DNA from: Myxococcota bacterium
GTDB lineage: Bacteria > Myxococcota_A > Polyangia > Polyangiales > Houyiibacteriaceae
Length of the DNA stretch: 64,000 nucleotides
Direction: 5' to 3'
Assembly: GCA_039030295.1 (NCBI GenBank)
Contig: JBCCEK010000003.1
Coordinates: 180-64,179, forward strand
In this document: positions 32,181-53,529 of the stretch, piece after piece
Numbering within the stretch: position 1 is the first letter of the stretch
Layout: the number at the start of each line of letters is the position of its first letter
Notes under the pieces: generated by a model
What the model saw: only the letters and a program-made list of their open reading frames with translations
The model's database searches: none
Told to the model about the DNA's origin: nothing
Program-made: the position numbers and the translations under genes

Positions 32181-33058
32181 TGCCTGAGGACTTCGACTGG
32201 GATCCGCTTCGGGTGTTCGTCGCGGCTGCGGATACCGGCTCCCTGTCGGGCGCCGCGCGTGAGGTCGGGGTGAGCCAACCGACAGCTGGGCGGCAAGTCC
32301 AAGCGCTTGAGTCACAGCTCGGCGTGCAACTCTTCGCCCGAACTTCGCGCGGACTTCAACTCACCGACACCGGCATGGCGCTCCTCGAGCACGCGCGCAC
32401 GATGGCCGCGGCTGCCAACCGACTCGCCCTCGCCGCGCAAGGCCAGGCCGAGAGCGTCGCTGGCGTCGTTCGAATCACTGCGAGCGAGGTCGTCGCCACC
32501 TATACGTTGCCCCCGGTCCTCGTTGAGCTCCGAGCGGCCGAGCCCGAGATCGAAATCGAGCTCGTGGCGTCGAACGCGACGGAGAACCTACTCGAACGCG
32601 AGGCTGACATTGCCGTGCGGATGTACAGGCCGACGCAAGCCGACGTCATCACGCGAAGCATCGGAGAGATCGGCGTCGGCGCCTACGCAGCCGAGTCGTA
32701 CATCGCCCGTCATGGTTGCCCCATCGAGCCCGAAGATCTCCTAGAGCATGACGTGGTGGGCTACGACCGGGACGACACGACAATTCGCGGTTTTCGCATG
32801 GCTGGAGTGGAAGTGACACGACGGTTCTTTCCCGTGCGCACCGACGACCAAGTCTTGGCGTGGCATCTGGTCGTGGCGGGCTATGGGATCGGTTTCATGC
32901 AGGTTCAGATCGGTGACGCCGAGCCCAAGGTGCGCCGCGTATTGCCCGACCTGTCGCTGCCCACGCTTCCGATGTGGTTGACGGCGCACTCGGAGCTCAA
33001 GACGAACCGACGTATTCGGCGAGTCTACGATTTCCTTGCCGAGGCCCTCGCGCGCTAG
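32180..33058 (+). CDS. LysR family transcriptional regulator
   Basis: HTH AADTGSLSGAAREVGVSQPTAGRQVQALE. Its TAG stop and the convergent PMK stop share the palindrome CTAG at 33055-33058. Confidence 0.85.
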   Translation: MPEDFDWDPLRVFVAAADTGSLSGAAREVGVSQPTAGRQVQALESQLGVQLFARTSRGLQLTDTGMALLEHARTMAAAANRLALAAQGQAESVAGVVRITASEVVATYTLPPVLVELRAAEPEIEIELVASNATENLLEREADIAVRMYRPTQADVITRSIGEIGVGAYAAESYIARHGCPIEPEDLLEHDVVGYDRDDTTIRGFRMAGVEVTRRFFPVRTDDQVLAWHLVVAGYGIGFMQVQIGDAEPKVRRVLPDLSLPTLPMWLTAHSELKTNRRIRRVYDFLAEALAR

Positions 33059-34050
33059 CGCGAAGACGCTGCTCGACCAGCTGACACGTCGTCACCGTAG
33101 TCGCGGCGCCTGGGTTCATCCGCACGGACGCCTGGCACGCCCCACGGGAGGTCGATTGGAACGAGCCCGTGTCCGGAGCATCGTTCGAGGAACGAAGCAC
33201 GCGCGCCCGGATCCGAGAAGAACGCCACTGCCGCATCACCGCCTCCTGCGCCGCAGGGTTTCGCGGCTCCTCCTTCGAGGGCCGCCCATTCCGCGACGGC
33301 GTCGAGCTCACGAGTCACGATCGGGGCCCCGGTGTGGTTCCCAAGGCCCCGCATCGCCTCGTGGTACTGCGCCGCGCAACGGATCACGGATCTCACATCG
33401 CCTTCTCGGAACGCGCGCGCGAACGCGCTCCCAAGCTCGACAAGCGAGGCCATGAGCCGCGCGTATCGGGACGCGTCCCGGACTTGGAGGGCCTTGACGC
33501 GGGAGACCAGATCGGATGTACGCACCGGACTCGCGGTCCAGACCAGCGCCGGCGCCAACGACGCGGGACCCCTCACGGGGGAGGCATCGACGACCGCGTC
33601 TTCGCCGATGCGAAACTCGAGGAAGCCACCGTAGGTCGAGGCGGCCACGTCGACCCCGCTCCCCTCGGGCGCGACGGCGCGGTGTCCCTCGAGCGCAGCC
33701 GCGAACACGCGGTCGCGAATGCCGGGCTCGTCGAGGTCGAACCCTCGCGCCACCGCCACCGCTGCCGCGGCCCCGACTGCTGCTGCCGCCGACGACCCAA
33801 GGCCGAGCTTTTTCCCGTCTCGAAAAAGGGCGCTTGCATCGAACCGCAACGGAGGTGTGATCTTCCCGAACTCGCGCTCCGATGCGGCCGTGGCTGCGAC
33901 CGCCTCTGGGCCTGGTCGATGGTACGCCGTCGATGGTGGTTCTCTTTCGACACGCAGCCGTCGCCCGACGGCGGCGACGACCGCGGTTCCACCCTCGAGT
34001 ACGCCGTACTCGCCGCAGAGAAGGGCCTTCCCGGGGGCGGAGATCAACAA
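33055..34050 (-). CDS. mvaK2: Phosphomevalonate kinase (GHMP kinase)
   Basis: SAPGKALLCGEYGVLEG, and the GHMP motif KLGLGSSAAA. Start assigned to TTG 34050 or 34047, overlapping the upstream TGA. The long ORF-track N-terminus overlaps the decarboxylase and was rejected. Confidence 0.8.
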   Translation of the reverse strand: MLISAPGKALLCGEYGVLEGGTAVVAAVGRRLRVEREPPSTAYHRPGPEAVAATAASEREFGKITPPLRFDASALFRDGKKLGLGSSAAAAVGAAAAVAVARGFDLDEPGIRDRVFAAALEGHRAVAPEGSGVDVAASTYGGFLEFRIGEDAVVDASPVRGPASLAPALVWTASPVRTSDLVSRVKALQVRDASRYARLMASLVELGSAFARAFREGDVRSVIRCAAQYHEAMRGLGNHTGAPIVTRELDAVAEWAALEGGAAKPCGAGGGDAAVAFFSDPGARASFLERCSGHGLVPIDLPWGVPGVRADEPRRRDYGDDVSAGRAASSR

Positions 34051-35036
34051 ACGGAGACCTCGATGCCTGGCCCAGGAGACGCGACGATCACATCGTGCAC
34101 GCCTGGCGTCTGCCGGAGCGCTGCCCGGACTTCCGAGGCGTCCTTCGCTTCGCAAAGTGTCTTGACGTGAGGCCCGGCGTCCATCGTCGCCCATGCCGAC
34201 ACCCCGTCCGACCGAAGCGAACGGACCGTACGAAGCGCCGCTACGGTGCCGGGCCCCCAGTAGAGGACGCTCGGCCGCGACGTCATCGCGCAGGCATGAA
34301 ACGCCATCGTGCTTTGTTCCATCGCCTCGCCTAGCGTCGTCAGATCTTTCTCCCGAACCGCGGTTCTGATCGTTTCGAAGAGCTCGGGGGCAGACTCGAT
34401 CCACGCGTGGTAGAGCGGCGACGTGTTGCGGGAGGCCGTCATCGCTTCCGTGGATCCAATCGCCTTGGGCCCGCGCTCGGTCAGTGCGACCAATAGGCGA
34501 ACGTCCCAGTGGTCCGCGGGCGCAAGCTGCACGGCGTGAAGCAGGTCGTCTCCGGGAATCCCGGCGCCGAGCTCGACGAAACCTCCGAAGATCGACCGGG
34601 CTGCGGATGCGCTCGACCTCCGGGCCAACGCGCTCAGAGCACCGTGCGGCAGTGTCTTGGCAGCCGCGGCTGTTGAGGCAGCAGCCAGGGCCGCGAAGCC
34701 CGAGGCGCTCGAAGCCAGGCCCGCGGCGGTCGGGAACCTATTGATACTCTCGACCCGTGCGTGGCAACTCAAGCCAGAGATCGCCCGCGTCCGGTCGAGG
34801 AGTCCCGTCACCCGCCGAGTCTCGCTTGCCGACCCCGGTCGGCCATCGAGGATCAACTCGTCTTGGGATAACGTTGGGTCGAAATAGACCTCGGTCTCGG
34901 TGACCAACTCGCCGAGGGTCAACGACAGGCTCGGGACCGCGGGTAGGTTGTAGACGCGGTCACTTTTGCCCCAGTACTTCGCGAGCGCGATGTTCGAGCA
35001 TGCGACCGCGCGCCCCACACTCGCCTCACGCAGCAT
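34044..35036 (-). CDS. mvaD: Diphosphomevalonate decarboxylase
   Basis: ACSNIALAKYWGK, FPTAAGLASSASGFAA. Start ATG 35036 overlaps the mevalonate kinase stop by 11 nt. Confidence 0.9.
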   Translation of the reverse strand: MLREASVGRAVACSNIALAKYWGKSDRVYNLPAVPSLSLTLGELVTETEVYFDPTLSQDELILDGRPGSASETRRVTGLLDRTRAISGLSCHARVESINRFPTAAGLASSASGFAALAAASTAAAAKTLPHGALSALARRSSASAARSIFGGFVELGAGIPGDDLLHAVQLAPADHWDVRLLVALTERGPKAIGSTEAMTASRNTSPLYHAWIESAPELFETIRTAVREKDLTTLGEAMEQSTMAFHACAMTSRPSVLYWGPGTVAALRTVRSLRSDGVSAWATMDAGPHVKTLCEAKDASEVRAALRQTPGVHDVIVASPGPGIEVSVC

Positions 35037-35943
35037 GACCGAGCTCCTCGACGAACGCATCGACGGGTAGGGTGTCTCGAACTCGGATCGCGTGATCGGC
35101 ATCTTGCGCCAACGCGATCACACAGCCTCCGCCTCCGGCGCCAGTGACTTTGGCACCCAAGGCTCCCGCGCGTCGGGCCGCCTCGCACAAGTTCTCCACC
35201 TTCGGCGTGCTCAACCCGAAGGTGCGAAGGACTCGATGGTTGCCGTCGAGCGTTCGCCCGAGTGTGTTCAAGTCACCGTCTCGGATGGCCGCTTCGGCTT
35301 GATCGACCAGGTGCCCGATCTGCTCTAGCGCGCGTCCGCTCTCGACCGGTTCCGTGCGGCAACGCTCCGCGACCGCTTCGACCATCACCTTCGTCTCCGA
35401 GCTCTCGCCGCTGTGGGCCACCACCACGTAGAACGGAGCTCGCGAGCGCACGACTTGAACCGACGACCCACGTTGAAACCGCAGGAGTCCGCCGACCGCC
35501 GCGGCCGTGTTGTCGATGCCGGAGGGCGCCCCGTGGAAAACACGCTCCCAAGACAGGGCCAACTCCGCGAGGTCGGCGCGCTCTCGACGGACTCCGAGAT
35601 ACCGGTCGACCGCGTCGATGACCGCCACGCCAAGCGCGGCAGAGCAACCGAGGCCGGCGCCCGGGGGAAGCTCTACTTCCGCGTGAACCTCGAGGGGAGG
35701 GCGTTGTCCTTGGAACGCGAGGGCGCGATCGAACGCGCGTGCCAACGGCTCACTTGCTGCGGCATTCGGCTCGACTCGAACGCCCCACGGTTCAATCGAG
35801 AGTCGATCGCGAGGCCCCAACGTGGCGCGTGCACGAACGCCGCGTCGAACACCGGCGGCGATCGCGGGTTGACCGTGTACGACCGCGTGCTCACCGACGA
35901 GGATGACCTTGCCACCCCCGAAGCCTAGAGTCCGATCGCTCAT
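35026..35943 (-). CDS. mvk: Mevalonate kinase
   Basis: GGGKVILVGEHAVVHG, PPGAGLGCSAALGVA, KVTGAGGGGC. ATG 35943 lies 1 nt after the upstream stop. Confidence 0.9.
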   Translation of the reverse strand: MSDRTLGFGGGKVILVGEHAVVHGQPAIAAGVRRGVRARATLGPRDRLSIEPWGVRVEPNAAASEPLARAFDRALAFQGQRPPLEVHAEVELPPGAGLGCSAALGVAVIDAVDRYLGVRRERADLAELALSWERVFHGAPSGIDNTAAAVGGLLRFQRGSSVQVVRSRAPFYVVVAHSGESSETKVMVEAVAERCRTEPVESGRALEQIGHLVDQAEAAIRDGDLNTLGRTLDGNHRVLRTFGLSTPKVENLCEAARRAGALGAKVTGAGGGGCVIALAQDADHAIRVRDTLPVDAFVEELGHAA

Positions 35944-35944
35944 G

Positions 35945-37063
35945 CTACGTGCGGCGGACGGTGAGCTTGTCGGCCAGTTCCTCGAGCATTCCGAGCCCTT
36001 GCGGATTGAAGAGATCAGCACCTACTGCACAGCGAGCTTCGTCGCATAGCCCGGCAATCCTCAGCTCGAGTCGCTCAACGACCTCCGTTTCCCGGAGGCA
36101 TTGCTGTGCCAAGGCCAGCTCCTCGCTCGTGGCGTTGCGGTTCCCGAAGACCGACTCGACTGGCTGCCGAGTCGCCAGTTCGGTCGTGCTACGAAGCTCC
36201 GCCATGACACTGCTCAGCTTCCCGTGAGGGATGTCCATCCCGGGCTTGCCTGTGTCCTCCGCATCGCCGAGGGCTCCAAGCAGGTCGTCGCGGATCTGAA
36301 ACGCTTCGCCGATCGGGTTCGCCCAAGCGGTCAGTGCGGCGATCTGCTCCGCGGTCGGATTTCCGAGGAGTGCACCGAGGATGAGTGGACCTCTCACCGA
36401 GTAGCTGGTGGTCTTGAGGGCGTGCATTCGAGACACGTCTGGGTCGCCCGTGAGATCGAGTTGCTGACCGCAGTAGACCTGTTTTTGAAGCTCGATGAAG
36501 GCGCGCTGTGCGTCCGTCCACGATTGCATGGGAAAGGGCGCCTCGACGAAAAGCTCCCACGCATAGGTCGAAGCGAGGTCTCCCGCGAGAACGCCGAGTG
36601 CAGCGCCGAGATGCACGTCGTCGTGACGGTGTTGAAGACTCGCATGCACCGCCGCCCCTCCTCGACGTACTTCGTCTCCGTCCATCCAGTCGTCGTGGAT
36701 GAGCAGATAGCTCTGCAGCAGTTCGAGCGATGCGCTGAGGTCGACCAGTCGGTCCATCCCGTGCCCGGGACGGACGCATCGGTATCCGGCTGCGGCGACG
36801 GCAGGTCGGAGCCGCTTCCCGCCTCGCATGGTCAGCGCCTCGATCTCCTCCACCAACTCGAGCGTGGGCGGCGAGACGTTCTTCGTCTCACGGCGCTTGT
36901 CATCAAAGAACTCCGCAAGGTGCACGTCTACCTCGAGTCGCACGATCTGCAGCCAGTGCGTCGGTCGCGACCCGAGACGCGGGGAGTCCCCGGTCGATGC
37001 CGCGCGATCGAGTTCACGCTGGCGGTACTTGGGTACGACCTCGGTCAGTTGGGATGCTCTCAT
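35945..37063 (-). CDS. Polyprenyl diphosphate synthase, probable farnesyl diphosphate synthase
   Basis: First Asp-rich motif LLIHDDWMDGD, second FQIRDDLLG. Tyr lies five residues before the first motif. ATGA overlap with the cyclase stop. Confidence 0.8.
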   Translation of the reverse strand: MRASQLTEVVPKYRQRELDRAASTGDSPRLGSRPTHWLQIVRLEVDVHLAEFFDDKRRETKNVSPPTLELVEEIEALTMRGGKRLRPAVAAAGYRCVRPGHGMDRLVDLSASLELLQSYLLIHDDWMDGDEVRRGGAAVHASLQHRHDDVHLGAALGVLAGDLASTYAWELFVEAPFPMQSWTDAQRAFIELQKQVYCGQQLDLTGDPDVSRMHALKTTSYSVRGPLILGALLGNPTAEQIAALTAWANPIGEAFQIRDDLLGALGDAEDTGKPGMDIPHGKLSSVMAELRSTTELATRQPVESVFGNRNATSEELALAQQCLRETEVVERLELRIAGLCDEARCAVGADLFNPQGLGMLEELADKLTVRRT

Positions 37064-39036
37064 GACAGTCTCCGTGGGCTATCAGGACCTGCGTCCGCCC
37101 GGTGTTTGAGCGCGAGCGCCATGACCGGGAAGTACTGCCGGTACAGGCGGTAGTTGAGGAGGGCGGTCTCGAAGAAGACCCCCACGAATTCGTCGTCTCT
37201 CCAGAGGCCTGATGACTGCTGGCGTCGTTCAAGCCACGCGGCGGCCCTCTCGATGGCGTTCCGATCCGGTTCGTTGGCTTCGATGAGGGTGATCATCGCC
37301 CACGCGGTTTGAACCACCGAACCTTGCGACGCTTGCACGTAGCCCCGGCTCGGGCCGCTCGTGTAGTCCTCGCCCCAAGCGCCGTCGCTTCTTTGGTGTG
37401 AGAGGAGCCAACGGCAAGCATCGCGAACGTGAGCGTCGGTAGCGGGAACACCGGCTGCCAGCAACCCTCGAACGCCAAACATCGTCCCGTAGATGAAGTG
37501 CACGCCCCACGCGGCGTCCCAAGTGCCGTCGTTGTTCTGGACGCGTCGAAGAAGGTCACCTGCACGCGTGATCGCAGCGTCGAGGCGCACGCGCATGAGG
37601 TCCGGGTAGTGTCTTCGCAGGTCGCTTAGCGCCATCAGGCAAGAGGCCGTGCATTCGACGTACGAGCGCTCGGTCATGCAGCGTCCGAACATCTCAGCGG
37701 GGTTCATCCATTCGAGTGGGAATCGCGTCTTTGCGGGTTCGTAGCTTCCAAAACCCCCGTCGTGGTTCTGGCAGCGAAGGATGAAGCGTGCTGCCCTGGC
37801 GGCGTTCTCCTTGCCGATCGCCTCGGGCCGTGTCCGCAAGAGCCCGATCAACGCCTCGGCCGTGCAGTCGCTCACTGGCCAGCCGTGGCCGACTTCGGAG
37901 AAGCACCAACCGCCATTCGGTTGGATCCGATGGGCCGCCTCGTAGTCGTACGCTGCGGCGCCCACCTGTTGTGAGGCGAGGAACGCGGCGCTCCGCGAGA
38001 CGGACTCGCTGCAATCGACGTGCGCGACTTCCGAGAGCGCTTGGAGCGCGAACGCCGTGTCCCAACACACGCTTCCGGCTCCTGCGACGCGCGAGCCCTC
38101 GTTCGCGTCCTCCCAGAACCAATCTTCGAATCGGTCCGTCGCGCGCTCGAGGTGCGGGTCAGCCGGGTTCTCCGCCCACAGTGCCAGCATGATCAGAAGC
38201 CCGTTCACAGGCGAAAGACCGAGGTAATCGCTTGCGCGAAGATGGGCGCGCATGTCGGCGAGGAGACGTGTCGTGAGCGTACGGCGAAGCCGGCGCGAGT
38301 GAACTCGGTCGTAGCCGCGTGCGACGGCGAACACAGCGCGAAGCGCCGGCCCTGCCGCAAAGGGGGCGTCCTCAGGTCGAATGTCGTTGCGGTAGCGGGC
38401 GAATGAAACCCGAGCGAAGCGCCCCCCGTAGAGCTCGTTCTCGAGCTCGTCGACCACCGGCCCTCGCTCGGCGACGAAGCGCCTGCCGAACAGGACCGCG
38501 AGCCCAAGGTAGATCTGACGGGTGTGGCAGTAGTAGTTCGAAGGGTGCAGGGGCACCCACTCCGGGAGCGCCCACGCCTCGGGAACGATCGGGTTCACCC
38601 CGTCCCAGTCGTAGAGCCCAAGGGTCGCCAACCAGACTTTTCCCCAAGTCGGGATCCGCTCCACACGCTCTGAGGCGAAGAGGCGTCGCGCGTCTTCGAG
38701 CCAAGGCGTTTCGGCCGGGGCGCCCAGAATCCGTGCCGCGACGTACACCAACGTGGTCACGTAGAGGTTCCCGTCATCGTACGGGTGGAGCCCCCATAAA
38801 CCCGAGTCGTGCCGAGTGACCCTGAACTGGGTCAGGAGTCCCGCTCGTCGCTCATCACCAAGCTCCTGCTTCATGATGTGCGACGCGATCGCGTACTGGG
38901 CCGCGAGCATGGGGTTCCATACGCACTCGCCTTCCCAGCTCCCGTCGTCCCTTTGGAGGCGGATCAGCGCGTCGAGGCCTCGATCCAGAGGCGTCTGTGC
39001 GTGAATCGAAAGATGGGTTGTTGCCGCGGCAGGCAT
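37060..39036 (-). CDS. Oxidosqualene cyclase (lanosterol/cycloartenol synthase type)
   Basis: Catalytic GWPVSDCTAEAL (the OSC-type VxDCTAE, not the hopene-cyclase DxDDTA). WDTAFALQAL, and repeated QW-type motifs (e.g. RLQRDDGSWEG, RCQNHDGGFG, RVQNNDGTW, SHQRSDGAWGE). Start ATG 39036 lies 5 nt after the HMGR stop. The Arg-rich 217-aa ORF extension was rejected. Confidence 0.9.
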   Translation of the reverse strand: MPAAATTHLSIHAQTPLDRGLDALIRLQRDDGSWEGECVWNPMLAAQYAIASHIMKQELGDERRAGLLTQFRVTRHDSGLWGLHPYDDGNLYVTTLVYVAARILGAPAETPWLEDARRLFASERVERIPTWGKVWLATLGLYDWDGVNPIVPEAWALPEWVPLHPSNYYCHTRQIYLGLAVLFGRRFVAERGPVVDELENELYGGRFARVSFARYRNDIRPEDAPFAAGPALRAVFAVARGYDRVHSRRLRRTLTTRLLADMRAHLRASDYLGLSPVNGLLIMLALWAENPADPHLERATDRFEDWFWEDANEGSRVAGAGSVCWDTAFALQALSEVAHVDCSESVSRSAAFLASQQVGAAAYDYEAAHRIQPNGGWCFSEVGHGWPVSDCTAEALIGLLRTRPEAIGKENAARAARFILRCQNHDGGFGSYEPAKTRFPLEWMNPAEMFGRCMTERSYVECTASCLMALSDLRRHYPDLMRVRLDAAITRAGDLLRRVQNNDGTWDAAWGVHFIYGTMFGVRGLLAAGVPATDAHVRDACRWLLSHQRSDGAWGEDYTSGPSRGYVQASQGSVVQTAWAMITLIEANEPDRNAIERAAAWLERRQQSSGLWRDDEFVGVFFETALLNYRLYRQYFPVMALALKHRADAGPDSPRRLS

Positions 39037-39041
39037 CGGTC

Positions 39042-40250
39042 CTACTCCGCGGCGGCGATCTCGAATCGCCGTGCGTGCAGATTCATGTGCCCGCTCTGGA
39101 TCCCCTCGGACGCCAGTGCGGAGAGCGCGCCGAGGTTCTGCGCCAACCCCACGGCCGCCATCACCATCGCGAGCTCGCCTGCAGTGTCGACGTTGAGGAG
39201 CTTTCGGAGCACGCGAAGGGCGGGCTGGACCGAAGTAGACCCCCCGACTGTCCCCACGGCCATCGGTACTTCGATCTCGCCGTGGAGCATCCCGTCGACT
39301 TGCCACCAGCGTGTCAACGGTTCGTAGCGGCCGTGGCGGGCGGCGTAGGCGTGCGCGCCTGCTTCGAGCCCGCGCCAGTCGTTCCCGGTGGCGACGCCGA
39401 CCGCGTCGATCCCGTTCATGACGCCCTTGTTGTGCGTTGCCGCGCGGTAGGGGTCGACCGCCGCGAACTGATAGGCTTCGACGACCCCATGGGCAACTTC
39501 GGCGCCCGAGTGTCCGCGGCGTTCGAGAAGTTCTTCTTGAATCGCGCAGCTCGCCCGCGCCATTCGCCGATCGGACAGGTTGCTCAGGATCCGAAGACGC
39601 ACCCGGCCTCCCGTCAGCTCTTCGATGATCGGCGCGACGCCCTCGGCCATGTCGTTGACCAGGTTCGCGCCCATGGCGTCGCGGCAATCGACGAGCAGGT
39701 GAACGACCAGCATCGGCGGGTCTGAGTCGAGAATCCGCACTTCGAGCGACTTCGCGCCCCCGCGGCGCGCCACCATGTTGGGGTGACGGTCATTCGCGAC
39801 TTGCAGGATCCGGTCTGCCTGTCGTTCGATGGCATTGCGTGCTCCGAACGGGTCTGGCACTTCGAGAACCTGCACTTGCGCGATCATCAAGGACTCGCTC
39901 GCGGTCGCGGAGAAGCCACCCGACTCGCGGATCACACGGGCCATGTTGCTGGCCGCGGCGACTACCGAGGGTTCTTCGACGACCATCGGTACCACGTAGT
40001 CGCGCCCGTTGACCTGGAAGTTCAGCCCGAGACCCACGGGCATCTTGAGAACGCCGACGCAGTTTTCGACCATCTTGTCGGCGATCTCGGCGTCGGTCGG
40101 GTCTTCGCACCCGAGCGCAGCGAGGTCTTCTGGGTCTAGAGAGAAACGTTCCGCGAGTTGGTGATGGCGACCCGGAAGGTCAAGCCGATAGAACCCGGGA
40201 ATGCGAGAGGAGGGACGAAGCGGTGCGCGATGGCTTGCTCGATCGGTCAT
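39042..40250 (-). CDS. mvaA: HMG-CoA reductase, class II
   Basis: Near-colinear with the Pseudomonas mevalonii enzyme as recalled: VPMVVEEPSVVAAAS, DAMGAN, AAVDPYRAATHNKGVMNGIDAV, GLAQNLGALSALASEGIQSGHM. ATGA overlap with the squalene synthase stop. Confidence 0.95.
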   Translation of the reverse strand: MTDRASHRAPLRPSSRIPGFYRLDLPGRHHQLAERFSLDPEDLAALGCEDPTDAEIADKMVENCVGVLKMPVGLGLNFQVNGRDYVVPMVVEEPSVVAAASNMARVIRESGGFSATASESLMIAQVQVLEVPDPFGARNAIERQADRILQVANDRHPNMVARRGGAKSLEVRILDSDPPMLVVHLLVDCRDAMGANLVNDMAEGVAPIIEELTGGRVRLRILSNLSDRRMARASCAIQEELLERRGHSGAEVAHGVVEAYQFAAVDPYRAATHNKGVMNGIDAVGVATGNDWRGLEAGAHAYAARHGRYEPLTRWWQVDGMLHGEIEVPMAVGTVGGSTSVQPALRVLRKLLNVDTAGELAMVMAAVGLAQNLGALSALASEGIQSGHMNLHARRFEIAAAE

Positions 40251-41323
40251 GCGGCATCCATGGTGCGGGGCCCGCCGTTGGTGACCGAGTTGGCCGCCAT
40301 CAGTCGAGCGACAGGAGTCCAGAGCGACTCGTAGTCCGAGCGGAGGAGGGCATCGTCTTGGTAGCTCGCGGCGCACCGAGCGATGACCTCTTCCACTTCC
40401 GCGCGACTCACTTTGACTTCTTGGCCATCGGTGAACATCGCGTCGTTCCCGTAGGCGAGGACGACAGTCCTCACGGCGAGCCACAGAGGCAACAAGCAGA
40501 ACAGTCGGATCTCTCGATGCTCCGCCGGGATCGTCAGTGCGTACTCGAGCGCGCTGTCCAGTTTGGTGCGCGCGAGGTGGAACATCGGAAAGACCGCTCG
40601 ATGTGCAGCCGCGAGCTGATCGGGATCGAGAAGATCACGACTCCGCAGTCCTTGCTTTCGGCAAAGGGACCGAGGCACGAACGACCATCCGCGCTGCATG
40701 TCGTCGGTGATGTCTTTCAGGATGTTGACGAGCTGAAGGCCCGTACCGAACGCCTCGGCGTGCTCGTACAGCGCGGCAGACAGCTCCGATTCGGGTGACG
40801 TACCCATCTCGGCGAGGAAGAGCTCGGTCAGCATGTGACCCACCGTGCCTGCGACGAAGTAACAGTACCGTTGCAGATCGTCGCTCGTTGTTGGAGCGAC
40901 CACACCGTCGGCGTCGGCGCGTCGATGGCTGTAGATCTCCATCCCATGAGCCATCTCATCGACCCAACGAACCACGGCGTCGCGCATCGGGGCCGGCACG
41001 GTATCGAGAACGGCGATCACGCGATCGATTCGGCGGCACAGTTCGATCTCTTCGACTGGGGACCCGGCGACATCGTTCCATTGATGCCCAAACTCCGACG
41101 GATCGACCGTTCCGGCGAGCACGCCGTGGAACGCGCGGTAGCGCACACTTCGCTCGTCGAGAGAGAACGAGGCGTTGTCTTCGACCGCATCGACGATTCG
41201 GCAGAGCAGGTATCCGCACGTCACGGCCCTCCTCAGGTCTCCAGGTAGCACCTCGATCGGTCGGGAGAATGTCCGGGACACTTCCCGGAGACTGCCTGCG
41301 CAGAAGTCCCATTCAGCTGACAT
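40247..41323 (-). CDS. Squalene synthase (farnesyl-diphosphate farnesyltransferase)
   Basis: SRTFSRPI, YLLCRIVDAVED (DxxED), and NILKDITDDMQRGWSFVP (second Asp-rich box). Single-enzyme SQS type. Confidence 0.9.
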   Translation of the reverse strand: MSAEWDFCAGSLREVSRTFSRPIEVLPGDLRRAVTCGYLLCRIVDAVEDNASFSLDERSVRYRAFHGVLAGTVDPSEFGHQWNDVAGSPVEEIELCRRIDRVIAVLDTVPAPMRDAVVRWVDEMAHGMEIYSHRRADADGVVAPTTSDDLQRYCYFVAGTVGHMLTELFLAEMGTSPESELSAALYEHAEAFGTGLQLVNILKDITDDMQRGWSFVPRSLCRKQGLRSRDLLDPDQLAAAHRAVFPMFHLARTKLDSALEYALTIPAEHREIRLFCLLPLWLAVRTVVLAYGNDAMFTDGQEVKVSRAEVEEVIARCAASYQDDALLRSDYESLWTPVARLMAANSVTNGGPRTMDAA

Positions 41324-42692
41324 GCTTTTCCTCCTCGACGAAGACCTCAGTTGGGTCGTCAGGGCGTGCCCAGGATTCGGGTGCTGCCCACGACACCGAC
41401 CGTTGCCGCATCAAACTCTGGCTCGGGTGAACGCTCGCCCACGGCCACCGAAGCCAGCCCGCGAGCTCGCGCGCCGTGGCGGCGTCAGAAAGAAGCACCC
41501 CGGCGCCGGCTCGCAGTGCAACGCGTGAGAAGGCCCGAACGAAATCGACTCGGCTCGTCGTAGCCGCGCCAAGCAGATCCATGGTTCGGTTGCGTTGCAT
41601 CGAGCTCGCGCGCCAGGTGCTGAAAATCGAGTCGCGAATCGCGATCGCCCCCACGTCCTCGCGAGCAAACGCCTGGTAAATCGCGTTCGAGAGGAGTTCC
41701 GGCACGTAGCTTTCGGCAGCCCGCTGTGCGGCATACGAGCTCAGCGAGCGGGCTCCGGCGAGGGCCTCTGCATCGAGGAGCGACATCGTGATGCCCATGG
41801 CGGTGAGCGGGTGGAACACCCCGGCCGCATCGCCGACGAGCGCCACCCCGCGGTCGGTTTGGTAGCGTCGCGGGCGGAACGTATTCGCGGCCCATCCGAT
41901 CGACGCATCTCCGGCGCCGCGACGGACGCCTTCGCGGAGCGCAGGTGGGAGCACCTCCGCGTACGACTTCCAGATCCAATCGTGGCTCTTCGTGCTTGCG
42001 CGCGCATCGTGCGGAACGTCGATGCACATCCGTACGGCGTTGTCCCCGATGCGATAGGCCAGCGCCGGCCCTGGTCCGCCCGTGATCACATGCCCGTACT
42101 CTTCGAAAGGAAGTTCGGTATCGCGCACGACCAGTCCGGCCATGACCGAGATCGAAACCTTCTCGCTGACTGCACCATCACCGAGGATCTTGCGCGCCGA
42201 GCGCCCCGTTGCGATGACGACGAGAGGTGCGTTGACCACGCGCGACTTAGACCTCTGAGTCAGCGTCACGAAGCGGCCCCGGACCTCGCTCGCGCGCACC
42301 CCTTCGAGATAGTCGACGCCTCTCGTCTGACTCACGCGCGCGCGCAGATGGGTCACCAAGGTTGCGTGTTCGCAGGAGAGACCGCGCTCGCCGCCGCCAT
42401 ACTCGAGGGTGATCGGACCGAGGCCATCGTTTGGAAACACGACGAAGCCGCGCCCGGTAGCGCCGTGCTCCAGTCCATCTAAAAGTTCGAGATTACGAAG
42501 GATTCTAGCCCCTTCGGGATGCACCCACTCCCCAGCGAAGCGCCGCGCTGCGTTCGGGTTCGACTCGACCAGGAGAACGCTCGCACCTCGCCGAGCGAAC
42601 GCCGCGGCGGTTGCGCAGCCCGCCGGTCCTGCACCGATAACCACGGTGTCGTACGCCGATCGAATGTCGCCCAAGTCGAACGTTGGCTGCAC
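41313..42692 (-). CDS. Squalene monooxygenase (epoxidase), FAD-dependent
   Basis: DTVVIGAGPAGCATA dinucleotide fold, GEWVHPEG, LVGDAAGVFHPLTAMGITMSLLDA. GTG start. Overlaps the SQS start by 11 nt. Confidence 0.85.
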   Translation of the reverse strand: MQPTFDLGDIRSAYDTVVIGAGPAGCATAAAFARRGASVLLVESNPNAARRFAGEWVHPEGARILRNLELLDGLEHGATGRGFVVFPNDGLGPITLEYGGGERGLSCEHATLVTHLRARVSQTRGVDYLEGVRASEVRGRFVTLTQRSKSRVVNAPLVVIATGRSARKILGDGAVSEKVSISVMAGLVVRDTELPFEEYGHVITGGPGPALAYRIGDNAVRMCIDVPHDARASTKSHDWIWKSYAEVLPPALREGVRRGAGDASIGWAANTFRPRRYQTDRGVALVGDAAGVFHPLTAMGITMSLLDAEALAGARSLSSYAAQRAAESYVPELLSNAIYQAFAREDVGAIAIRDSIFSTWRASSMQRNRTMDLLGAATTSRVDFVRAFSRVALRAGAGVLLSDAATARELAGWLRWPWASVHPSQSLMRQRSVSWAAPESWARPDDPTEVFVEEEKHVS

Positions 42693-43014
42693 GGTTTCCC
42701 CTGGCGCTTAGTATTCGCGCGCCGCGTCCGGCAGCTACAAGATTCGCTTCGGTGGATCGAACGTTGGTGTCGATCGTCCCAAAGCGCGCACGAACGGTTT
42801 GACAACTTCCCAATCTTTACAGCGTGTTGCGTTGCTGTACGTAGACGGATCAGCTTTACAATGCGTTGGCTATCGTGCTGTTGATCACGGTTCAATGATC
42901 GCTGCGGACCGCTGGCGAGATCTCACGAACGAGTCACACGTTTCTCGCGCTGCCAGTTACCGCGCGCGCTACAAACAATCGCGTCACATCGTCTCAAAGA
43001 GGAGAACACGTGAA
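42693..43014. promoter_or_regulatory. Divergent control region between the squalene-epoxidase operon and the HMG-CoA-synthase operon
   Basis: The only sizeable non-coding gap in the module. Exact 11-mer TCGAACGTTGG at 42676-42686 and 42757-42767. GATCGA-N9-TCGATC at 42755-42775. TTGACA at 42799-42804. Two CTTTACA..GCGTTG..TGCTGT units at 42815-42838 and 42854-42881. SD AAGAGGAG lies 10 nt before ATG 43015. Confidence 0.4.
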
Positions 43015-44112
43015 ATGAGCGCGAACCCTGCAGGCATTGCATCCATTGGTCTTCAACTTCCCAGGCTCTTCATGCCGGTGACAGAGCTCGCTGATCTTCG
43101 TGGGGTCGATCCGAACAAGTTTACAAAGGGTTTAGGCTGCGGTGAGATCGCACTTTGCGATCCCGACGAAGACGCCGTCACCTTGGCCGTTGGCGCTGCG
43201 AAACGTGCCCTCTCGCGTTGGGACGGGCTTGCCGAAGACATCGGGCTCATCGTTGTGGGCACGGAGAGTGCGAAGGACATGAGCCGTCCGCTCAGTGCTT
43301 GGGTCGCCGAGGAGCTCGGCCTCTCTGGGGGGATCCGGTCCTACGAAGTGAAGCACGCGTGCTATGGCGGAACGCTCGCGTTACGCCAGGCGCTCGAGTG
43401 GAAATGGTCGGGCGCTTCTGCAGGCAAGGCGGCGCTCGTGATCGCTTCCGACGTCGCTTTGTACTCGCTTCAAGATCCGGGCGAGCCCACGCAGGGCGCC
43501 GGGGCGGTCGCGATGATCGTAGACGAACCCCTCGTCGCACGCATCGAGAACCGCTCCTATCCGTTCAGCAGCCCGGCGTTCGACTTCTGGCGCCCGGTCG
43601 GCGATCCGTTCCCGTCCGTTGAAGGGCAGCTTAGCCTCGACTGCTACAAGCGCGCGGTCGAGGAGTGTTACGGCGCGATGGTGGGCGACCGAGATGCGCG
43701 CGCTGTCCTCGGGGCCTTCGAGGCGATGGCGTTCCACGTCCCGTTCCCGAAGATGGTCAAGAAGGCGGTCCTCCACCTGGCCGAGCAGCTCGGGTGGACC
43801 GAAGCCGAGGGTGAGGCGCTTTACGCGGAGAAGGTCGACTCGACCATGGCGTGGAACCGTTCGGTTGGAAACGCCTACACGGCGAGCCTTTGGATCTCGG
43901 TTGCCGGCACGCTCTCGGGTATGGCGGAGGGCACCCGCATGACGGCGCTCTCCTACGGATCCGGCTACGGCGCCGAGCTCCTCGAGCTGGTCGCAGGCCC
44001 TGCTGCCTCGGCTGGTGCGTGGGCAACCGACATCGAGCAGGATCTCCGTCAGCGCCGCCTGGTCGACAAAGCGACTTATGAATCTCTTCGGGGTCATGCA
44101 CGCGCGAGCTGA
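43015..44112 (+). CDS. mvaS: HMG-CoA synthase
   Basis: VGTESAKDMSRP, and the catalytic-Cys context EVKHACYGGT. Start moved to ATG 43015, which has a strong SD. Confidence 0.9.
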   Translation: MSANPAGIASIGLQLPRLFMPVTELADLRGVDPNKFTKGLGCGEIALCDPDEDAVTLAVGAAKRALSRWDGLAEDIGLIVVGTESAKDMSRPLSAWVAEELGLSGGIRSYEVKHACYGGTLALRQALEWKWSGASAGKAALVIASDVALYSLQDPGEPTQGAGAVAMIVDEPLVARIENRSYPFSSPAFDFWRPVGDPFPSVEGQLSLDCYKRAVEECYGAMVGDRDARAVLGAFEAMAFHVPFPKMVKKAVLHLAEQLGWTEAEGEALYAEKVDSTMAWNRSVGNAYTASLWISVAGTLSGMAEGTRMTALSYGSGYGAELLELVAGPAASAGAWATDIEQDLRQRRLVDKATYESLRGHARAS

Positions 44113-45187
44113 GGGCCCTCGGGCGCCGTCGGATGCGGCCCTCGGTGCTCGCAAGGCCGACCACCTCGATCTCTGCGAAGGAGACGCGGTCGCATTCCGA
44201 TCGAAGACGACTCTCCTCGAGGGCGTCCGGTTTCTCCACCAGTCTCTCCCCGAGTTGGCGTCAAACGAAGTCTCCACGGAGACGCAACTCCTAGGGCGCA
44301 CGCTACGCGCTCCTATCGTGATCGCCGCGATGACCGGCGGACACGAGCGCGCGGCGTCGATCAATCGCGGGTTGGCGGCGATCGCGGAGCAGCGGGGAAT
44401 CGGCCTCGGGCTTGGAAGCCAGCGTGCCATGCAGCGGGACCCGTCGATGGAATGGACCTACAGTGTTCGCGAGTGGGCGCCGAACATCCTGCTCCTCGGG
44501 AACATTGGCGTCGTGCAGGCCCGCGAGACGCCGACACGCGACATCGAAGGGTTGGTACGCGACGTCGGGGCCGATGCGTTGTGTGTGCATCTGAATCCGG
44601 CGATGGAGCTCATTCAGTCCGATGGTGACCGCGACTTCCGCGGCTGTGTGGACGCATTGAAGCGACTCTCGAACGAGCTCTCGGTTCCGGTCGTGGCGAA
44701 GGAAACCGGGAACGGGCTCAGTCCCCAAACCATCGCAAAGCTCGTTGAGGCGGGTATTCGGTACGTCGATACGTCGGGTGCGGGTGGAACCTCGTGGGTC
44801 GGGGTCGAGACGCTGCGGGCCGACGGCGTTCGGCGCACGATCGGAGACAGCCTCTGGGACTGGGGCATCCCGACCGCTCCCTCGATCCACTATGCGCGTC
44901 AGGCCAACATGACCACGATCGCCACGGGCGGCGTCCGTTCGGGTCACGACGTCGCCCGCGCGTTGGCACTCGGGGCGTCGGCCGCAGGCATTGCGCGACC
45001 GGTGTTGCAGTCGCTCCAGCAAGGCGGCGAGGAGGGTGCACTCACGTTCATCGACGGTATCGTGGAGGAGCTCCGCGCAGTCATGCTGCTGACAGGCTCG
45101 GCGACCCCGGCGGCGCTTCGCGAGGCACCGAGAATCATCTCCGGTGAGCTCGATCGCTGGATGGGCGCGGCGGGCCCAACGCCATGA
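44096..45187 (+). CDS. fni: Isopentenyl-diphosphate delta-isomerase, type 2 (FMN-dependent)
   Basis: RKADHLDL, APIVIAAMTGG, VVAKETGNG, SGAGGTSW, GGVRSGHDVA. Start ATG 44096 overlaps the HMGS 3' end (alternative 44078). Confidence 0.9.
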   Translation: MHARAEGPRAPSDAALGARKADHLDLCEGDAVAFRSKTTLLEGVRFLHQSLPELASNEVSTETQLLGRTLRAPIVIAAMTGGHERAASINRGLAAIAEQRGIGLGLGSQRAMQRDPSMEWTYSVREWAPNILLLGNIGVVQARETPTRDIEGLVRDVGADALCVHLNPAMELIQSDGDRDFRGCVDALKRLSNELSVPVVAKETGNGLSPQTIAKLVEAGIRYVDTSGAGGTSWVGVETLRADGVRRTIGDSLWDWGIPTAPSIHYARQANMTTIATGGVRSGHDVARALALGASAAGIARPVLQSLQQGGEEGALTFIDGIVEELRAVMLLTGSATPAALREAPRIISGELDRWMGAAGPTP

Positions 45188-45918: not shown

Positions 45919-46950
45919 TCAGGCGGGTCGCTGGGCGACGAAGAAGTAGTTCGGCGTGAAGATTCCGAGCTCTCCGCCGGCGATCAACGACTCGGCGGCG
46001 TTCCCAAGCATCCGGCTGACTTCGGTCGAGCCCGGAGGCGCGATCCGAAGCCGCTCGAGGGTACGAATCGTCCGGCGTGCGATCGCACGACCGACACGCC
46101 CGCGCCGGATGGCGATCGGATTGCTGAGCTCGCCCTTGAGCGGCAAGTACCAAGGCGTCCGCGCATCGGACCTCGTTGCCGCGTCGTGGCTTTCGACGAT
46201 CTCGAAGCCGGCCTCGCGGAGTGCTTCGAGAACCTCTGGGACGGTCGCAATGTCGGGCAGGCTGTCGCCCTCTTCGATGCCCTTCTTGATCTTCTGGTGA
46301 TGCGCATTCGTGGGGTCGAAGGCGTCCGTCATGCACCACTCATACGCGGCGAACTTGCCACCCGGCTTGAGAGTCCTGAGGATCTGCTTGAACACGGCGA
46401 CCTTGTCCGGGGCATGGCACGTCGCCTCGAATGCGTACGCGGCGTCGTACGTCTCGTCAGCGACACCGAGGTTCATGAAATCGTCTTTGAACCCAGAGCA
46501 CTGGCCGGCGAGCCCGGCTTTCTGGTTGTACTGCTCGAGCTTGGTCAGCTGGTAGTCGTTGTTGTTCACGCCTTCGATCGTGGCACCCGAGAAGCGCGCG
46601 ATGGCCCGCATGGGCCCACCGACCCCGCAGCCCACGTCGAGGACCTTCATGCCCTCGTTGAGCCCCAGTCGGAGCGCAAAGAAATGCTCGGAGCGAGCCA
46701 AGGACGCATCGAACGATTCACCGTCGAAGCGGGGTGCGAAGTGAAAGGACTGGCCCCAGCCGTGCTCGTAGAAATCGGTGACCAGATCGTAGTAGTGATT
46801 GATCATGGTCGTGTAGTCGGCCTTGCGCGTCTCGACGTTCGCGCCTGACGACTCGTCGAAGAAACCGAGGTAGTCGCGAATGGCGCCGCGGACGGTGCTG
46901 CGCGTCCGCGCGTCGGAGTAGAATTGCGTTACGGCTTGCTCTTGAGTCAT
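45919..46950 (-). CDS. Sterol C-24 methyltransferase (ERG6/SMT family)
   Basis: YYDLVTDFYEHGWGQSFHFA (SMT region I), VLDVGCGVGGP (SAM site), YAFEATCHAP (region III), 343 aa. Confidence 0.9.
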   Translation of the reverse strand: MTQEQAVTQFYSDARTRSTVRGAIRDYLGFFDESSGANVETRKADYTTMINHYYDLVTDFYEHGWGQSFHFAPRFDGESFDASLARSEHFFALRLGLNEGMKVLDVGCGVGGPMRAIARFSGATIEGVNNNDYQLTKLEQYNQKAGLAGQCSGFKDDFMNLGVADETYDAAYAFEATCHAPDKVAVFKQILRTLKPGGKFAAYEWCMTDAFDPTNAHHQKIKKGIEEGDSLPDIATVPEVLEALREAGFEIVESHDAATRSDARTPWYLPLKGELSNPIAIRRGRVGRAIARRTIRTLERLRIAPPGSTEVSRMLGNAAESLIAGGELGIFTPNYFFVAQRPA

Positions 46951-51112: not shown

Positions 51113-51149
51113 CGACTCCACAGCCGACAAGTTGGTGTATGCTGCACCC

Positions 51150-53478: not shown

Positions 53479-53529
53479 CGAGCACACGGTCGGGTTGCAG
53501 GACTCTCGATCTCGCTTCTATTCGTTATA

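What the first reader, a model, noticed from the sequence alone, without database searches (positions are those of the whole stretch)
37060..39036. Cyclase shows an OSC catalytic motif but a mixed product-specificity signature
The catalytic Asp lies in GWPVSDCTAE, the oxidosqualene-cyclase form, rather than the DxDDTA of hopene cyclases. This fits the adjacent epoxidase. In the literature as I recall it, lanosterol synthases carry T/C(or Q)/V and cycloartenol synthases Y/H/I at three positions (Arabidopsis CAS1 Y410/H477/I481). Reading those positions by hand gives Gly in VAGAGSVCWDTAF (six residues before WD), His in VGHGWP, and Val in WPVSDC. That is a G/H/V combination matching neither class, so the protosterol (lanosterol, cycloartenol, parkeol or another) cannot be predicted.
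Basis: partly seen in the sequence, partly recalled or inferred. Interest (0 to 1): 0.55.

Follow-up and report, generated by a model that had tools for sequence, protein, structure and literature searches.

The report
Ordinary bacterial lanosterol-type oxidosqualene cyclase
The gene is a normal bacterial oxidosqualene cyclase from an uncultured myxobacterium. Its "mixed" three-residue signature is shared by essentially all bacterial relatives examined, including two linked to lanosterol production, so its product can be predicted as lanosterol.

Summary
Window 37060-39036 (minus strand) encodes a 658-aa oxidosqualene cyclase (OSC). It matches human OSC at E=1.9e-120, and its model superposes on human OSC at TM 0.93. 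The catalytic Asp (D390) sits in HGWPVSDCTAE.

Proper alignments change one call. The first triad position is A320, not G319, because the bacterial loop carries a one-residue indel. The triad is therefore A/H/V, which still matches neither eukaryotic class.

This is not peculiar to the gene. G319, A320, H384, V388 and D390 are invariant in all 72 aligned homologues, and 82 of 82 fetched loci carry H/V. The literature already says that in bacteria only position 453 tracks product: V gives lanosterol, I gives cycloartenol.

Two A/H/V enzymes are tied to lanosterol. The Calothrix OSC makes it in E. coli, and Sandaracinus amylolyticus makes it in vivo. F379 (human F444) argues against parkeol. The H171/Y432 dyad is intact, and the arborinol substitutions are absent.

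Verdict: a new member of a known kind, predicted to be a lanosterol synthase. It lies in a conserved mevalonate-plus-sterol gene cluster of uncultured Myxococcota. No member of its own clade (58-89% identity) has been characterised, so a minor or mixed product is not excluded.

The parts
37060..39036 (-). Oxidosqualene cyclase gene, 658 aa (stop codon included)
   Evidence: ORF and translation. Human OSC 1W6K E=1.9e-120. Pfam SQHop_cyclase_N and _C. AlphaFold model pLDDT 89.8, TM 0.93 to 1W6J/1W6K.
37867..37869 (-). Catalytic Asp390 (human D455) within VSDCTAE
   Evidence: Invariant in 72 of 72 homologues.
37873..37875 (-). Val388 (human V453, AtCAS1 I481), the lanosterol-versus-cycloartenol position
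   Evidence: Alignments. Invariant in alignment A1. Bacterial V/I rule from Wei 2016.
37885..37887 (-). His384 (human C449, AtCAS1 H477)
   Evidence: Invariant in 72 of 72.
38077..38079 (-). Ala320, the aligned equivalent of human T381 / AtCAS1 Y410
   Evidence: phmmer and MAFFT L-INS-i both pair T381/Y410 with A320. Invariant in 72 of 72.
38080..38082 (-). It aligns with human G380.
37900..37902 (-). Phe379 (human F444), where Leu gives parkeol and Gln gives lanostadienol
   Evidence: Role of residue 444 from Thimmappa et al. 2022, PMC9236903.
38524..38526 (-). His171 (human H232), part of the deprotonating His/Tyr dyad with Tyr432 (37741-37743)
   Evidence: Site mapping. Both are invariant in alignment A1.
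35945..37063 (-). Polyprenyl (farnesyl) diphosphate synthase. Its ATG overlaps the OSC stop codon (ATGA).
   Evidence: Conserved next to the OSC in related loci at 64-73% identity. The function is my reading of the translation and was not scanned against a family library.
39042..40484 (-). HMG-CoA reductase (true start uncertain). Its stop lies 5 nt before the OSC ATG.
   Evidence: The function is my reading of the translation and was not scanned.
40247..41323 (-). Squalene synthase
   Evidence: TIGR01559 E=3.7e-35, below the curated cutoff. Conserved at 64-75% identity in clade loci.
41313..42692 (-). Squalene monooxygenase (epoxidase)
   Evidence: Pfam SE domain 80 bits plus FAD_binding_3.
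45919..46950 (-). Sterol C-24 methyltransferase homologue
   Evidence: Pfam Sterol_MT_C 73.6 bits plus methyltransferase domains.

Best explanation
The gene encodes a functional class II triterpene cyclase of the bacterial oxidosqualene-cyclase group. It protonates the epoxide of (3S)-2,3-oxidosqualene with Asp390, which is held by Cys391 and Cys462. It folds the substrate to the protosteryl cation. After the hydride and methyl shifts, it removes a proton through the His171/Tyr432 dyad to give lanosterol as the main product.

The enzyme sits in a translationally coupled operon-like block with mevalonate-pathway genes, farnesyl diphosphate synthase, squalene synthase and squalene epoxidase. Sterol-tailoring genes lie nearby. 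The locus therefore makes sterols from acetyl-CoA.

The A320/H384/V388 'mixed' triad is the standard bacterial form of these positions, not a special feature of this enzyme.

Shown here: family, fold, motif, residue equivalences, conservation and gene context. Inferred: substrate, product and mechanism, by homology and published residue rules.
For: Family and fold:
- E=1.9e-120 to human OSC versus 1.1e-46 to hopene cyclase.
- TIGR03463 scores 670.8 bits versus 256.6 for the hopene cyclase model.
- The model has pLDDT 89.8, with TM 0.93 and rmsd 2.3 A to 1W6J/1W6K.

Active site: D455=D390, C456=C391, C533=C462, W387=W325, F444=F379, W581=W510, Y587=Y516, F696=F621, Y704=Y629, H232=H171, Y503=Y432, V453=V388.

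Conservation:
- G319, A320, H384, V388 and D390 are invariant in 72 homologues.
- 82 of 82 fetched loci carry H/V with G-A-[R/G/K].

Product rules from the literature:
- In bacteria, V453 gives lanosterol and I453 gives cycloartenol; the other two triad residues are not conserved (PMC4919349).
- L444 gives parkeol, as shown for the Gemmata OSC (PMC9236903).
- Eudoraenol needs W230S, H232Y and N697Y (PMC12324236). Here these positions are Y169, H171 and F622.

Experimental anchors with the same triad:
- P0095 (ITGARSSTWDTGF / VWHGWPVSDCTAE) is encoded in AP018290.1, in the sterol cluster described for Calothrix sp. NIES-4105. That OSC gave lanosterol in E. coli.
- P0187 is the S. amylolyticus OSC (VTGARSASWDTAF / VWHGWPVSDCTAE), 48% identical to the window enzyme. 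That organism makes lanosterol and zymosterol.

Context:
- The block of diphosphomevalonate decarboxylase (MDD), mevalonate kinase (MVK), farnesyl diphosphate synthase (FPPS), OSC, HMG-CoA reductase (HMGR), squalene synthase (SQS) and squalene monooxygenase (SQMO) recurs in related loci. So do the divergently transcribed HMG-CoA synthase (HMGS), isopentenyl-diphosphate isomerase (IDI2) and response regulator (RR). This synteny is conserved in 14 related MAG loci.
- An ATGA stop/start overlap joins the OSC to FPPS.
- ERG2, SdmA-like, 3-beta-HSD and sterol methyltransferase (SMT) genes are in the window.
Against: - No enzyme of the window's own clade (P0001-P0054, 58-89% identity) has been characterised. 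The anchors are only 47-48% identical.
- The clade differs from other bacterial OSCs at a few sites near the active site: G321 (others R), S380 (A), C453 (S; human I524) and N628 (D).
- In the plant enzyme AtCAS1, H477 with V481 gives a lanosterol/cycloartenol mixture.
- The protein scores below the curated TIGR03463 cutoff, 670.8 versus 851.
- That AP018290.1 is strain NIES-4105 rests on my memory plus the match of the gene cluster to the paper's description.
- The S. amylolyticus evidence is a whole-cell lipid profile, not an assay of the enzyme.
- No cyclopropyl-sterol isomerase search of the rest of the genome was possible.
Confidence: 0.8

Rival explanations
1. It is a multi-product cyclase. 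Because His is kept at 449/477 while Val replaces Ile at 453/481, the enzyme releases a mixture of lanosterol with substantial cycloartenol and/or parkeol, as the plant mutant AtCAS1 I481V does.
For: AtCAS1 I481V makes lanosterol but retains cycloartenol, and His477 is needed for cycloartenol formation (bioRxiv 10.64898/2026.05.26.727834). A metagenomic bacterial OSC gave lanosterol plus parkeol (PMC12324236 table). In the text copy of Wei 2016 Table 3, the E. salina and P. pacifica rows carry '+' under both cycloartenol and lanosterol. The prose says lanosterol rather than cycloartenol, so this may be a column shift.
Against: The Tyr at 381/410 is absent (A320). By my recollection of the Matsuda-lab mutagenesis, that Tyr acts together with His477 in cycloartenol synthases. 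The Calothrix OSC with the same A/H/V triad is reported as giving lanosterol. S. amylolyticus shows lanosterol without cycloartenol. Wei 2016 report complete correlation of V453 with lanosterol in the bacteria they tested. F444 is kept, which argues against parkeol.
Confidence: 0.12
2. It is a cycloartenol synthase, as in Myxococcaceae (Stigmatella, Cystobacter).
For: His at position 449/477, as in cycloartenol synthases. Some Polyangia genomes and MAGs carry cycloartenol synthases.
Against: Position 453 is Val, not Ile. Position 381 is Ala, not Tyr. The only I-type sequence among the 120 nearest homologues is P0086. The published bacterial rule assigns V453 to lanosterol.
Confidence: 0.03
3. 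It makes a different triterpenol, such as parkeol, an arborane like eudoraenol or isoarborinol, or a new skeleton, owing to clade-specific substitutions.
For: The clade has no characterised member and has its own residues at positions 321, 380, 453 and 628. Bacterial OSCs with unexpected products do exist.
Against: F379 is not L or Q at position 444. The eudoraenol substitutions W230S, H232Y and N697Y are absent: Y169, H171 and F622, the same as in the Calothrix lanosterol synthase. The H232/Y503 dyad and all the aromatic cation-stabilising residues listed in the active-site mapping are kept. ERG2, SdmA-like and SMT genes nearby fit a lanosterol-derived sterol pathway.
Confidence: 0.04

Closest known systems
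Calothrix sp. NIES-4105/NIES-4071 oxidosqualene cyclase (BAZ57890.1 / BAZ11745.1; P0095), which made lanosterol when expressed in E. coli (Lee et al. 2023, PMC10202945)
   Same: Same length class (673 aa versus 658). About 47-48% identity over the whole protein. Same A/H/V triad (GARS..WD; HGWPVSDCTAE). Same Y, H, T, F at human positions 230, 232, 233 and 697. Lies in a sterol gene cluster with an epoxidase, squalene synthase, ERG2-like, Rieske SdmA-like and methyltransferase genes.
   Different: Cyanobacterial, not myxobacterial. It has R rather than G at window position 321, W rather than G at 383, S rather than C at 453 (human I524), and V rather than C at 38 (human Y98). No mevalonate-pathway genes lie within the 10 kb fetched on either side of it.
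Sandaracinus amylolyticus squalene monooxygenase-OSC fusion protein (P0187). The organism makes lanosterol and zymosterol (Wei et al. 2016, PMC4919349).
   Same: Myxococcota. 48% identity over 636 residues with no gaps at either motif. Same A/H/V triad.
   Different: There the cyclase is fused to the epoxidase in one 1145-aa protein. In the window, the epoxidase and cyclase are separate genes with HMGR and squalene synthase between them.
Human lanosterol synthase (PDB 1W6K)
   Same: Same fold (TM 0.93, rmsd 2.3 A). Same VSDCTAE catalytic motif. Same V453, F444 and H232/Y503 dyad, and the same cation-stabilising aromatics among the sites mapped here (W387, W581, Y587, F696, Y704).
   Different: 35% identity. 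T381 becomes A, C449 H, W230 Y, C233 T, N697 F, I524 C and Y98 C. There is a one-residue indel in the 380-384 loop. The protein is about 75 residues shorter, lacking the N-terminal extension.
   Same: His at 477. HGWP-x-SDCTAE motif.
   Different: Ile481 versus Val388. Tyr410 versus Ala320. 32% identity.

Membership tests
Oxidosqualene cyclase (class II triterpene cyclase, OSC branch) | Two-domain alpha/alpha-barrel (beta-gamma) fold of OSC/SHC | tested here: met
   AlphaFold model pLDDT 89.8, pTM 0.89. Foldseek best hits are human OSC 1W6J/1W6K at TM 0.93, then SHC at TM 0.83.
Oxidosqualene cyclase (class II triterpene cyclase, OSC branch) | Catalytic Asp in V-x-D-C-T-A-E (not DxDD), with the two Cys that hydrogen-bond it (human C456, C533) | tested here: met
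   V388-S-D390-C391-T-A-E394, and C462 aligns with C533.
Oxidosqualene cyclase (class II triterpene cyclase, OSC branch) | Closer to OSCs than to squalene-hopene cyclases | tested here: met
   E=1.9e-120 (human OSC) versus 1.1e-46 (SHC). TIGR03463 670.8 bits versus TIGR01507 256.6 bits.
Oxidosqualene cyclase (class II triterpene cyclase, OSC branch) | Score above the curated NCBIfam TIGR03463 cutoff (851 bits) | tested here: not met
   670.8 bits. The broader TIGR01787 squalene/oxidosqualene cyclase model is passed (465.1 versus 322.7). I read this as a strict subfamily cutoff set on other bacterial OSCs, not as evidence against OSC function.
Oxidosqualene cyclase (class II triterpene cyclase, OSC branch) | Cyclises 2,3-oxidosqualene and not squalene | not testable with these tools
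   Only indirect support: a squalene epoxidase (Pfam SE) lies in the same cluster. Related early-branching bacterial OSCs had no activity on squalene (PMC12324236).
Lanosterol synthase (product class), bacterial form | Val at human position 453 | tested here: met
   V388. Rule from Wei 2016.
Lanosterol synthase (product class), bacterial form | Phe at human position 444 (Leu gives parkeol, Gln gives lanostadienol) | tested here: met
   F379. PMC9236903.
Lanosterol synthase (product class), bacterial form | His232/Tyr503 deprotonation dyad | tested here: met
   H171 and Y432, both invariant in alignment A1.
Lanosterol synthase (product class), bacterial form | Lanosterol identified as the product | not testable with these tools
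   Needs heterologous expression and GC-MS or NMR.
Lanosterol synthase, eukaryotic triad T381 / C or Q449 / V453 | All three residues present | tested here: not met
   The triad is A320 / H384 / V388. The Calothrix and S. amylolyticus enzymes, both linked to lanosterol, fail it too. The triad therefore does not define bacterial lanosterol synthases.
Cycloartenol synthase, triad Y381(410) / H449(477) / I453(481) | All three residues present | tested here: not met
   Only His is present. The other two are Ala instead of Tyr and Val instead of Ile.
Arborane (eudoraenol/isoarborinol) synthase | W230S, H232Y and N697Y substitutions (human numbering) | tested here: not met
   Y169, H171 and F622. 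Determinants from PMC12324236.
Squalene-hopene cyclase | DxDD(TA) catalytic motif | tested here: not met
   The motif is VSDCTAE. The hopene cyclase model scores 256.6 bits, below its cutoff of 431.1.

The most novel reading that the evidence does not exclude
The window enzyme belongs to a clade of uncultured Myxococcota cyclases that has no characterised member. The clade is seen here in 54 protein clusters and 14 MAG loci. It has its own second-shell residues next to the triad: G321, S380, C453 and N628. It could therefore be a naturally promiscuous cyclase that releases lanosterol together with cycloartenol or parkeol, or some other protosterol, feeding a side-chain-methylated sterol pathway through the neighbouring SMT.
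Probability: 0.1. Interest if true: 0.45.

Novelty: new member of a known kind. Interest (0 to 1): 0.2.

Why it matters
As a finding about the cyclase, it matters little. The non-eukaryotic triad is a known general property of bacterial OSCs, and the product can be predicted from published rules.

The practical lesson is that the three-residue lanosterol/cycloartenol rule from plants and animals should not be applied to bacterial cyclases. Only position 453, together with 444 for parkeol, carries over.

The wider locus has some value. It is a compact, conserved supercluster in uncultured Myxococcota that joins the whole mevalonate pathway to squalene synthesis, epoxidation and cyclisation, with a sterol methyltransferase homologue and other tailoring genes in the same window. 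That adds to the evidence that free-living bacteria may make side-chain-alkylated sterols, which bears on how sterane biomarkers are interpreted. Such clusters have already been described (Brown et al. 2023).

Tried and rejected
- **Genome scan.** I scanned one genome per species with the OSC alignment, hoping to fetch the experimentally studied bacteria (Enhygromyxa, Plesiocystis, Nannocystis, Gemmata, Methylococcus, Stigmatella, Cystobacter, Fluviicola, Eudoraea). None of those species came back, so their triads were not read directly. The scan patterns included WPVSDCTA, so the 82/82 H/V count is biased towards V.
- **Source of the window.** An exact look-up of the window protein found nothing on record. 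The source organism is unidentified beyond being 89% identical to a Myxococcota MAG protein (P0001). The best GTDB species representative is 67% identical.
- **Cluster look-ups.** They gave no cultured-organism names for the window's clade.
- **Papers not held.** Summons et al. 2006 and Banta et al. 2017 are not in the library. Their content is cited only through Wei 2016 and PMC12324236.
- **Position 381.** I could not decide structurally between G319 and A320, because model coordinates cannot be superposed residue by residue with these tools. The call rests on two sequence alignments and the conserved [DE]-G-x-[KR]-x-x-G motif.
- **Neighbouring P450 (52114-53487).** I tested whether it is CYP51. 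It matches CYP120 (2e-36) and CYP51 (about 4e-34) equally weakly, so I do not call it a 14-alpha-demethylase.
- **Rfam.** A scan of 30-48 kb found nothing.
- **Gene picker.** My crude GC3-based script mis-called the OSC region. For the OSC cluster I used the tool's ORF list instead.
- **Mis-framed queries.** My HMGR and PMK query coordinates were out of frame, so those two columns of the synteny table are unreliable.
- **Residue numbering.** The human residue numbers printed there are shifted by the keeplength option. I used the mapping instead.
Full report
**What is there.** Window 37060-39036 on the minus strand is a 658-aa ORF starting at ATG 39036.
- The protein matches human lanosterol synthase (PDB 1W6K) at E=1.9e-120 over residues 20-642. 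It matches Alicyclobacillus squalene-hopene cyclase at only 1.1e-46.
- NCBIfam's 2,3-oxidosqualene cyclase model TIGR03463 scores 670.8 bits, below its strict cutoff of 851. The hopene cyclase model scores 256.6 bits. The general squalene/oxidosqualene cyclase model TIGR01787 is passed.
- Pfam finds both SQHop_cyclase domains.
- An AlphaFold model built on 72 homologues has mean pLDDT 89.8. It superposes on human OSC with TM 0.93 and rmsd 2.3 A, ahead of the hopene cyclases at 0.83.

**The three positions.** I rebuilt human residues 80-717 from the phmmer alignment and checked the numbering against known residues (T381, W387, F444, C449, V453, D455, Y503 and others). I also typed the Arabidopsis CAS1 sequence from memory. 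It is 759 aa long and has Y410, H477, I481 and D483 at the published numbers, which is an internal check but not a database retrieval.
- phmmer and MAFFT L-INS-i agree on three equivalences: D455 = D390, V453/I481 = V388, and C449/H477 = H384.
- For the first position, both pair human G380 with G319 and T381/Y410 with A320.
- Bacterial cyclases read [DE]-G-x-R-x-x-G-A-[G/R]-S-x-x-W-D. Eukaryotic ones read D-G-M-K-M-Q-G-[T/Y]-N-G-S-Q-x-W-D.
- The bacterial loop is thus one residue shorter between the Gly and the Ser, and one residue longer upstream.

**Is it unusual? No.**
- In an alignment of the window protein with 71 of its best database homologues (46-89% identity), G319, A320, S322, W325, D326, H384, W386, V388 and D390-E394 are all invariant. 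The set includes cyanobacterial and gammaproteobacterial proteins.
- The 49 further sequences retrieved are mostly epoxidase-cyclase fusions. By my reading of those sequences they carry the same residues, with one exception: P0086 has HGWPISDCTAE.
- A scan of one genome per bacterial species found more than 599 stretches matching the two search patterns, WPVSDCTA or W[ML]NP[AS]EMF. Of these, 560 were confirmed as OSC relatives.
That count is biased by the V-containing search pattern.
- In a neighbour-joining tree, the I-type P0086 nests among the V-type bacterial enzymes. It is as similar to the window protein (48.7%) as the Calothrix enzyme is (46.7%).

**What the literature says.**
- Wei, Yin and Welander 2016 (PMC4919349), citing Summons et al. 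2006, state that in bacterial cyclases only one of the three residues is conserved. In every bacterium they profiled, V453 went with lanosterol and I453 with cycloartenol.
- Thimmappa et al. 2022 (PMC9236903) showed that residue 444 controls parkeol and lanostadienol formation. F gives lanosterol. The Gemmata obscuriglobus OSC, which has L444, makes parkeol in yeast.
- A 2025 preprint (PMC12324236) lists the substitutions that give eudoraenol (W230S, H232Y, N697Y and one further site). It also reports that early-branching bacterial OSCs make lanosterol or cycloartenol and do not use squalene.
- A 2024 preprint on Myxococcota classes the Nannocystaceae, Sandaracinaceae and Polyangiaceae cyclases as lanosterol synthases, apart from Labilithrix luteola.
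- A 2026 preprint confirms that in Arabidopsis CAS1, I481V alone gives lanosterol with residual cycloartenol, while H477N gives a full switch.

**Experimental anchors with the same triad.**
- P0095 carries ITGARSSTWDTGF and VWHGWPVSDCTAE. It has accessions BAZ11745.1 and BAZ57890.1. It is encoded on AP018290.1 in a cluster with squalene synthase, epoxidase, ERG2-like, EBP-like, Rieske, 3-beta-HSD and P450 genes. This matches the 21-kb sterol cluster that Lee et al. 2023 describe for Calothrix sp. NIES-4105, whose osc gave lanosterol in an oxidosqualene-producing E. coli. That AP018290.1 is NIES-4105 is my recollection. The source's own name for the identical protein is Calothrix sp. NIES-4071.
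- P0187, found with a second database search, is named Sandaracinus amylolyticus and lies on a 10.33-Mb contig. It is an epoxidase-cyclase fusion reading VTGARSASWDTAF and VWHGWPVSDCTAE, and it is 48% identical to the window enzyme. S. amylolyticus makes lanosterol and zymosterol and no cycloartenol.

**Other determinants in the window enzyme.**
- F379 (human F444) argues against parkeol.
- The H171/Y432 dyad (human H232/Y503) is intact.
- Y169, H171 and F622 occupy human positions 230, 232 and 697, as in the Calothrix lanosterol synthase. The eudoraenol substitutions are absent.
- W325, W510, Y516, F621 and Y629 are kept.
- Against other bacterial OSCs, the window's clade differs consistently at only a few positions near the pocket: G321 (others R), S380 (A), C453 (S; human I524) and N628 (D).

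**Surroundings.** The cyclase lies in a tight minus-strand block.
- The order is squalene epoxidase (41313-42692), squalene synthase (40247-41323), HMG-CoA reductase (about 39042-40484), the cyclase, a farnesyl diphosphate synthase (35945-37063), then mevalonate kinase, diphosphomevalonate decarboxylase and phosphomevalonate kinase.
- The cyclase stop overlaps the FPPS start in ATGA. The HMGR stop is 5 nt upstream of the cyclase ATG.
- Divergently transcribed are HMG-CoA synthase, type-2 IPP isomerase and a LytTR response regulator. A sterol methyltransferase homologue follows at 45919-46950 (Sterol_MT_C, 73.6 bits).
- Further out are a Rieske/KshA_C protein (SdmA-like, 51024-52088) and a P450 (52114-53487). 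The P450's best matches are CYP120 and CYP51 at about 1e-34 to 1e-36, so it is not a clear CYP51.
- Also present are an ERG2/sigma-1 homologue (56642-57304) and a 3-beta-HSD family protein (4358-5437).
- The core gene order is conserved at 53-83% protein identity in 14 MAG loci labelled Myxococcota, Polyangiales, Myxococcales or similar.
- The window's species is not among the species representatives, where the best match is 67% identical. The closest protein on record is 89% identical, from a Myxococcota MAG.
- No Rfam family matches within 30-48 kb.
- Sterol clusters with functional SMTs in uncultured bacteria, including a marine Sandaracinus-like MAG, have already been published (Brown et al. 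2023, PMC10070321).

**Mechanism, with what is shown and what is inferred.**
- Shown: family, fold, catalytic motif, residue equivalences, conservation and gene context.
- Inferred from homology and the published residue rules: Asp390, polarised by Cys391 and Cys462, protonates the epoxide of 2,3-oxidosqualene. The substrate cyclises to the protosteryl cation. The cation migrates, and the His171/Tyr432 dyad removes the proton to give lanosterol.
- From my own recollection of the Matsuda-lab mutagenesis, cycloartenol formation in CAS1 needs Tyr410 as well as His477 and Ile481. An A/H/V site lacks two of those three.
- I put 0.8 on lanosterol as the main product, 0.12 on a substantial mixture, and a few percent each on cycloartenol or another product.

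**Verdict.** The interpretation that the product cannot be predicted is not supported. The signature is the ordinary bacterial one, it is already discussed in the literature, and it is tied to lanosterol in two cases. This is a new member of a known kind, and interest is low. The remaining uncertainty is that no enzyme of this particular clade has been assayed.

Noticed in passing
window 11309-13141 (-): A 610-aa protein that joins a wax-ester synthase/diacylglycerol acyltransferase (WS_DGAT_cat plus WS_DGAT_C) to a C-terminal SCP2 sterol-transfer domain. It is a candidate steryl-ester synthase in a sterol-producing bacterium.
   Followed up: no
window 45919-46950 (-), beside 45184-45909 (+): A sterol C-24 methyltransferase homologue (Sterol_MT_C 73.6 bits) lies next to a LytTR-type response regulator at the edge of the mevalonate/sterol cluster. 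The SMT is conserved at 67-84% identity in L006, L010 and L025. Bacterial SMTs in sterol clusters are known (PMC10070321).
   Followed up: partly
window 51024-52088 (+), 52114-53487 (-), 56642-57304 (+), 4358-5437 (+): Further likely sterol-tailoring genes: a Rieske/KshA_C protein (SdmA-like), a P450, an ERG2/sigma-1 C-8 isomerase homologue, and a 3-beta-HSD family dehydrogenase. The P450 matches CYP120 and CYP51 only at about 1e-34 to 1e-36 and so is not a clear CYP51.
   Followed up: partly
window 33055-45187 and loci L001, L004-L012, L019, L025: The complete mevalonate pathway is interleaved with FPPS, squalene synthase, epoxidase and cyclase in one block. The order is conserved across 14 uncultured Myxococcota MAG loci. 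In S. amylolyticus and many relatives, the epoxidase and cyclase are instead fused into one protein of about 1130 aa.
   Followed up: partly
window 27188-28639 (+): An RPE65-family carotenoid cleavage oxygenase (401 bits) lies upstream of the cluster. It is conserved at 74-77% identity near the cluster in L001 and L025.
   Followed up: no
window 37060-37063 and 39036-39044: The cyclase stop TGA overlaps the FPPS start ATG (ATGA). The HMGR stop lies 5 nt before the cyclase ATG. Both suggest translational coupling within the operon.
   Followed up: yes
P0086 (ENA metagenome protein, 1132 aa): This is the only one of the 120 nearest homologues with Ile at position 453 (HGWPISDCTAE). Its triad is otherwise the same as the V-type bacterial enzymes, and it nests among them in a neighbour-joining tree. 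That is consistent with a single-residue lanosterol/cycloartenol switch in bacteria.
   Followed up: partly
PMC4919349, Table 3 as held in text form: The rows for Enhygromyxa salina and Plesiocystis pacifica show '+' under both cycloartenol and lanosterol. The prose says they make lanosterol rather than cycloartenol. This may be a column shift in the text copy.
   Followed up: no
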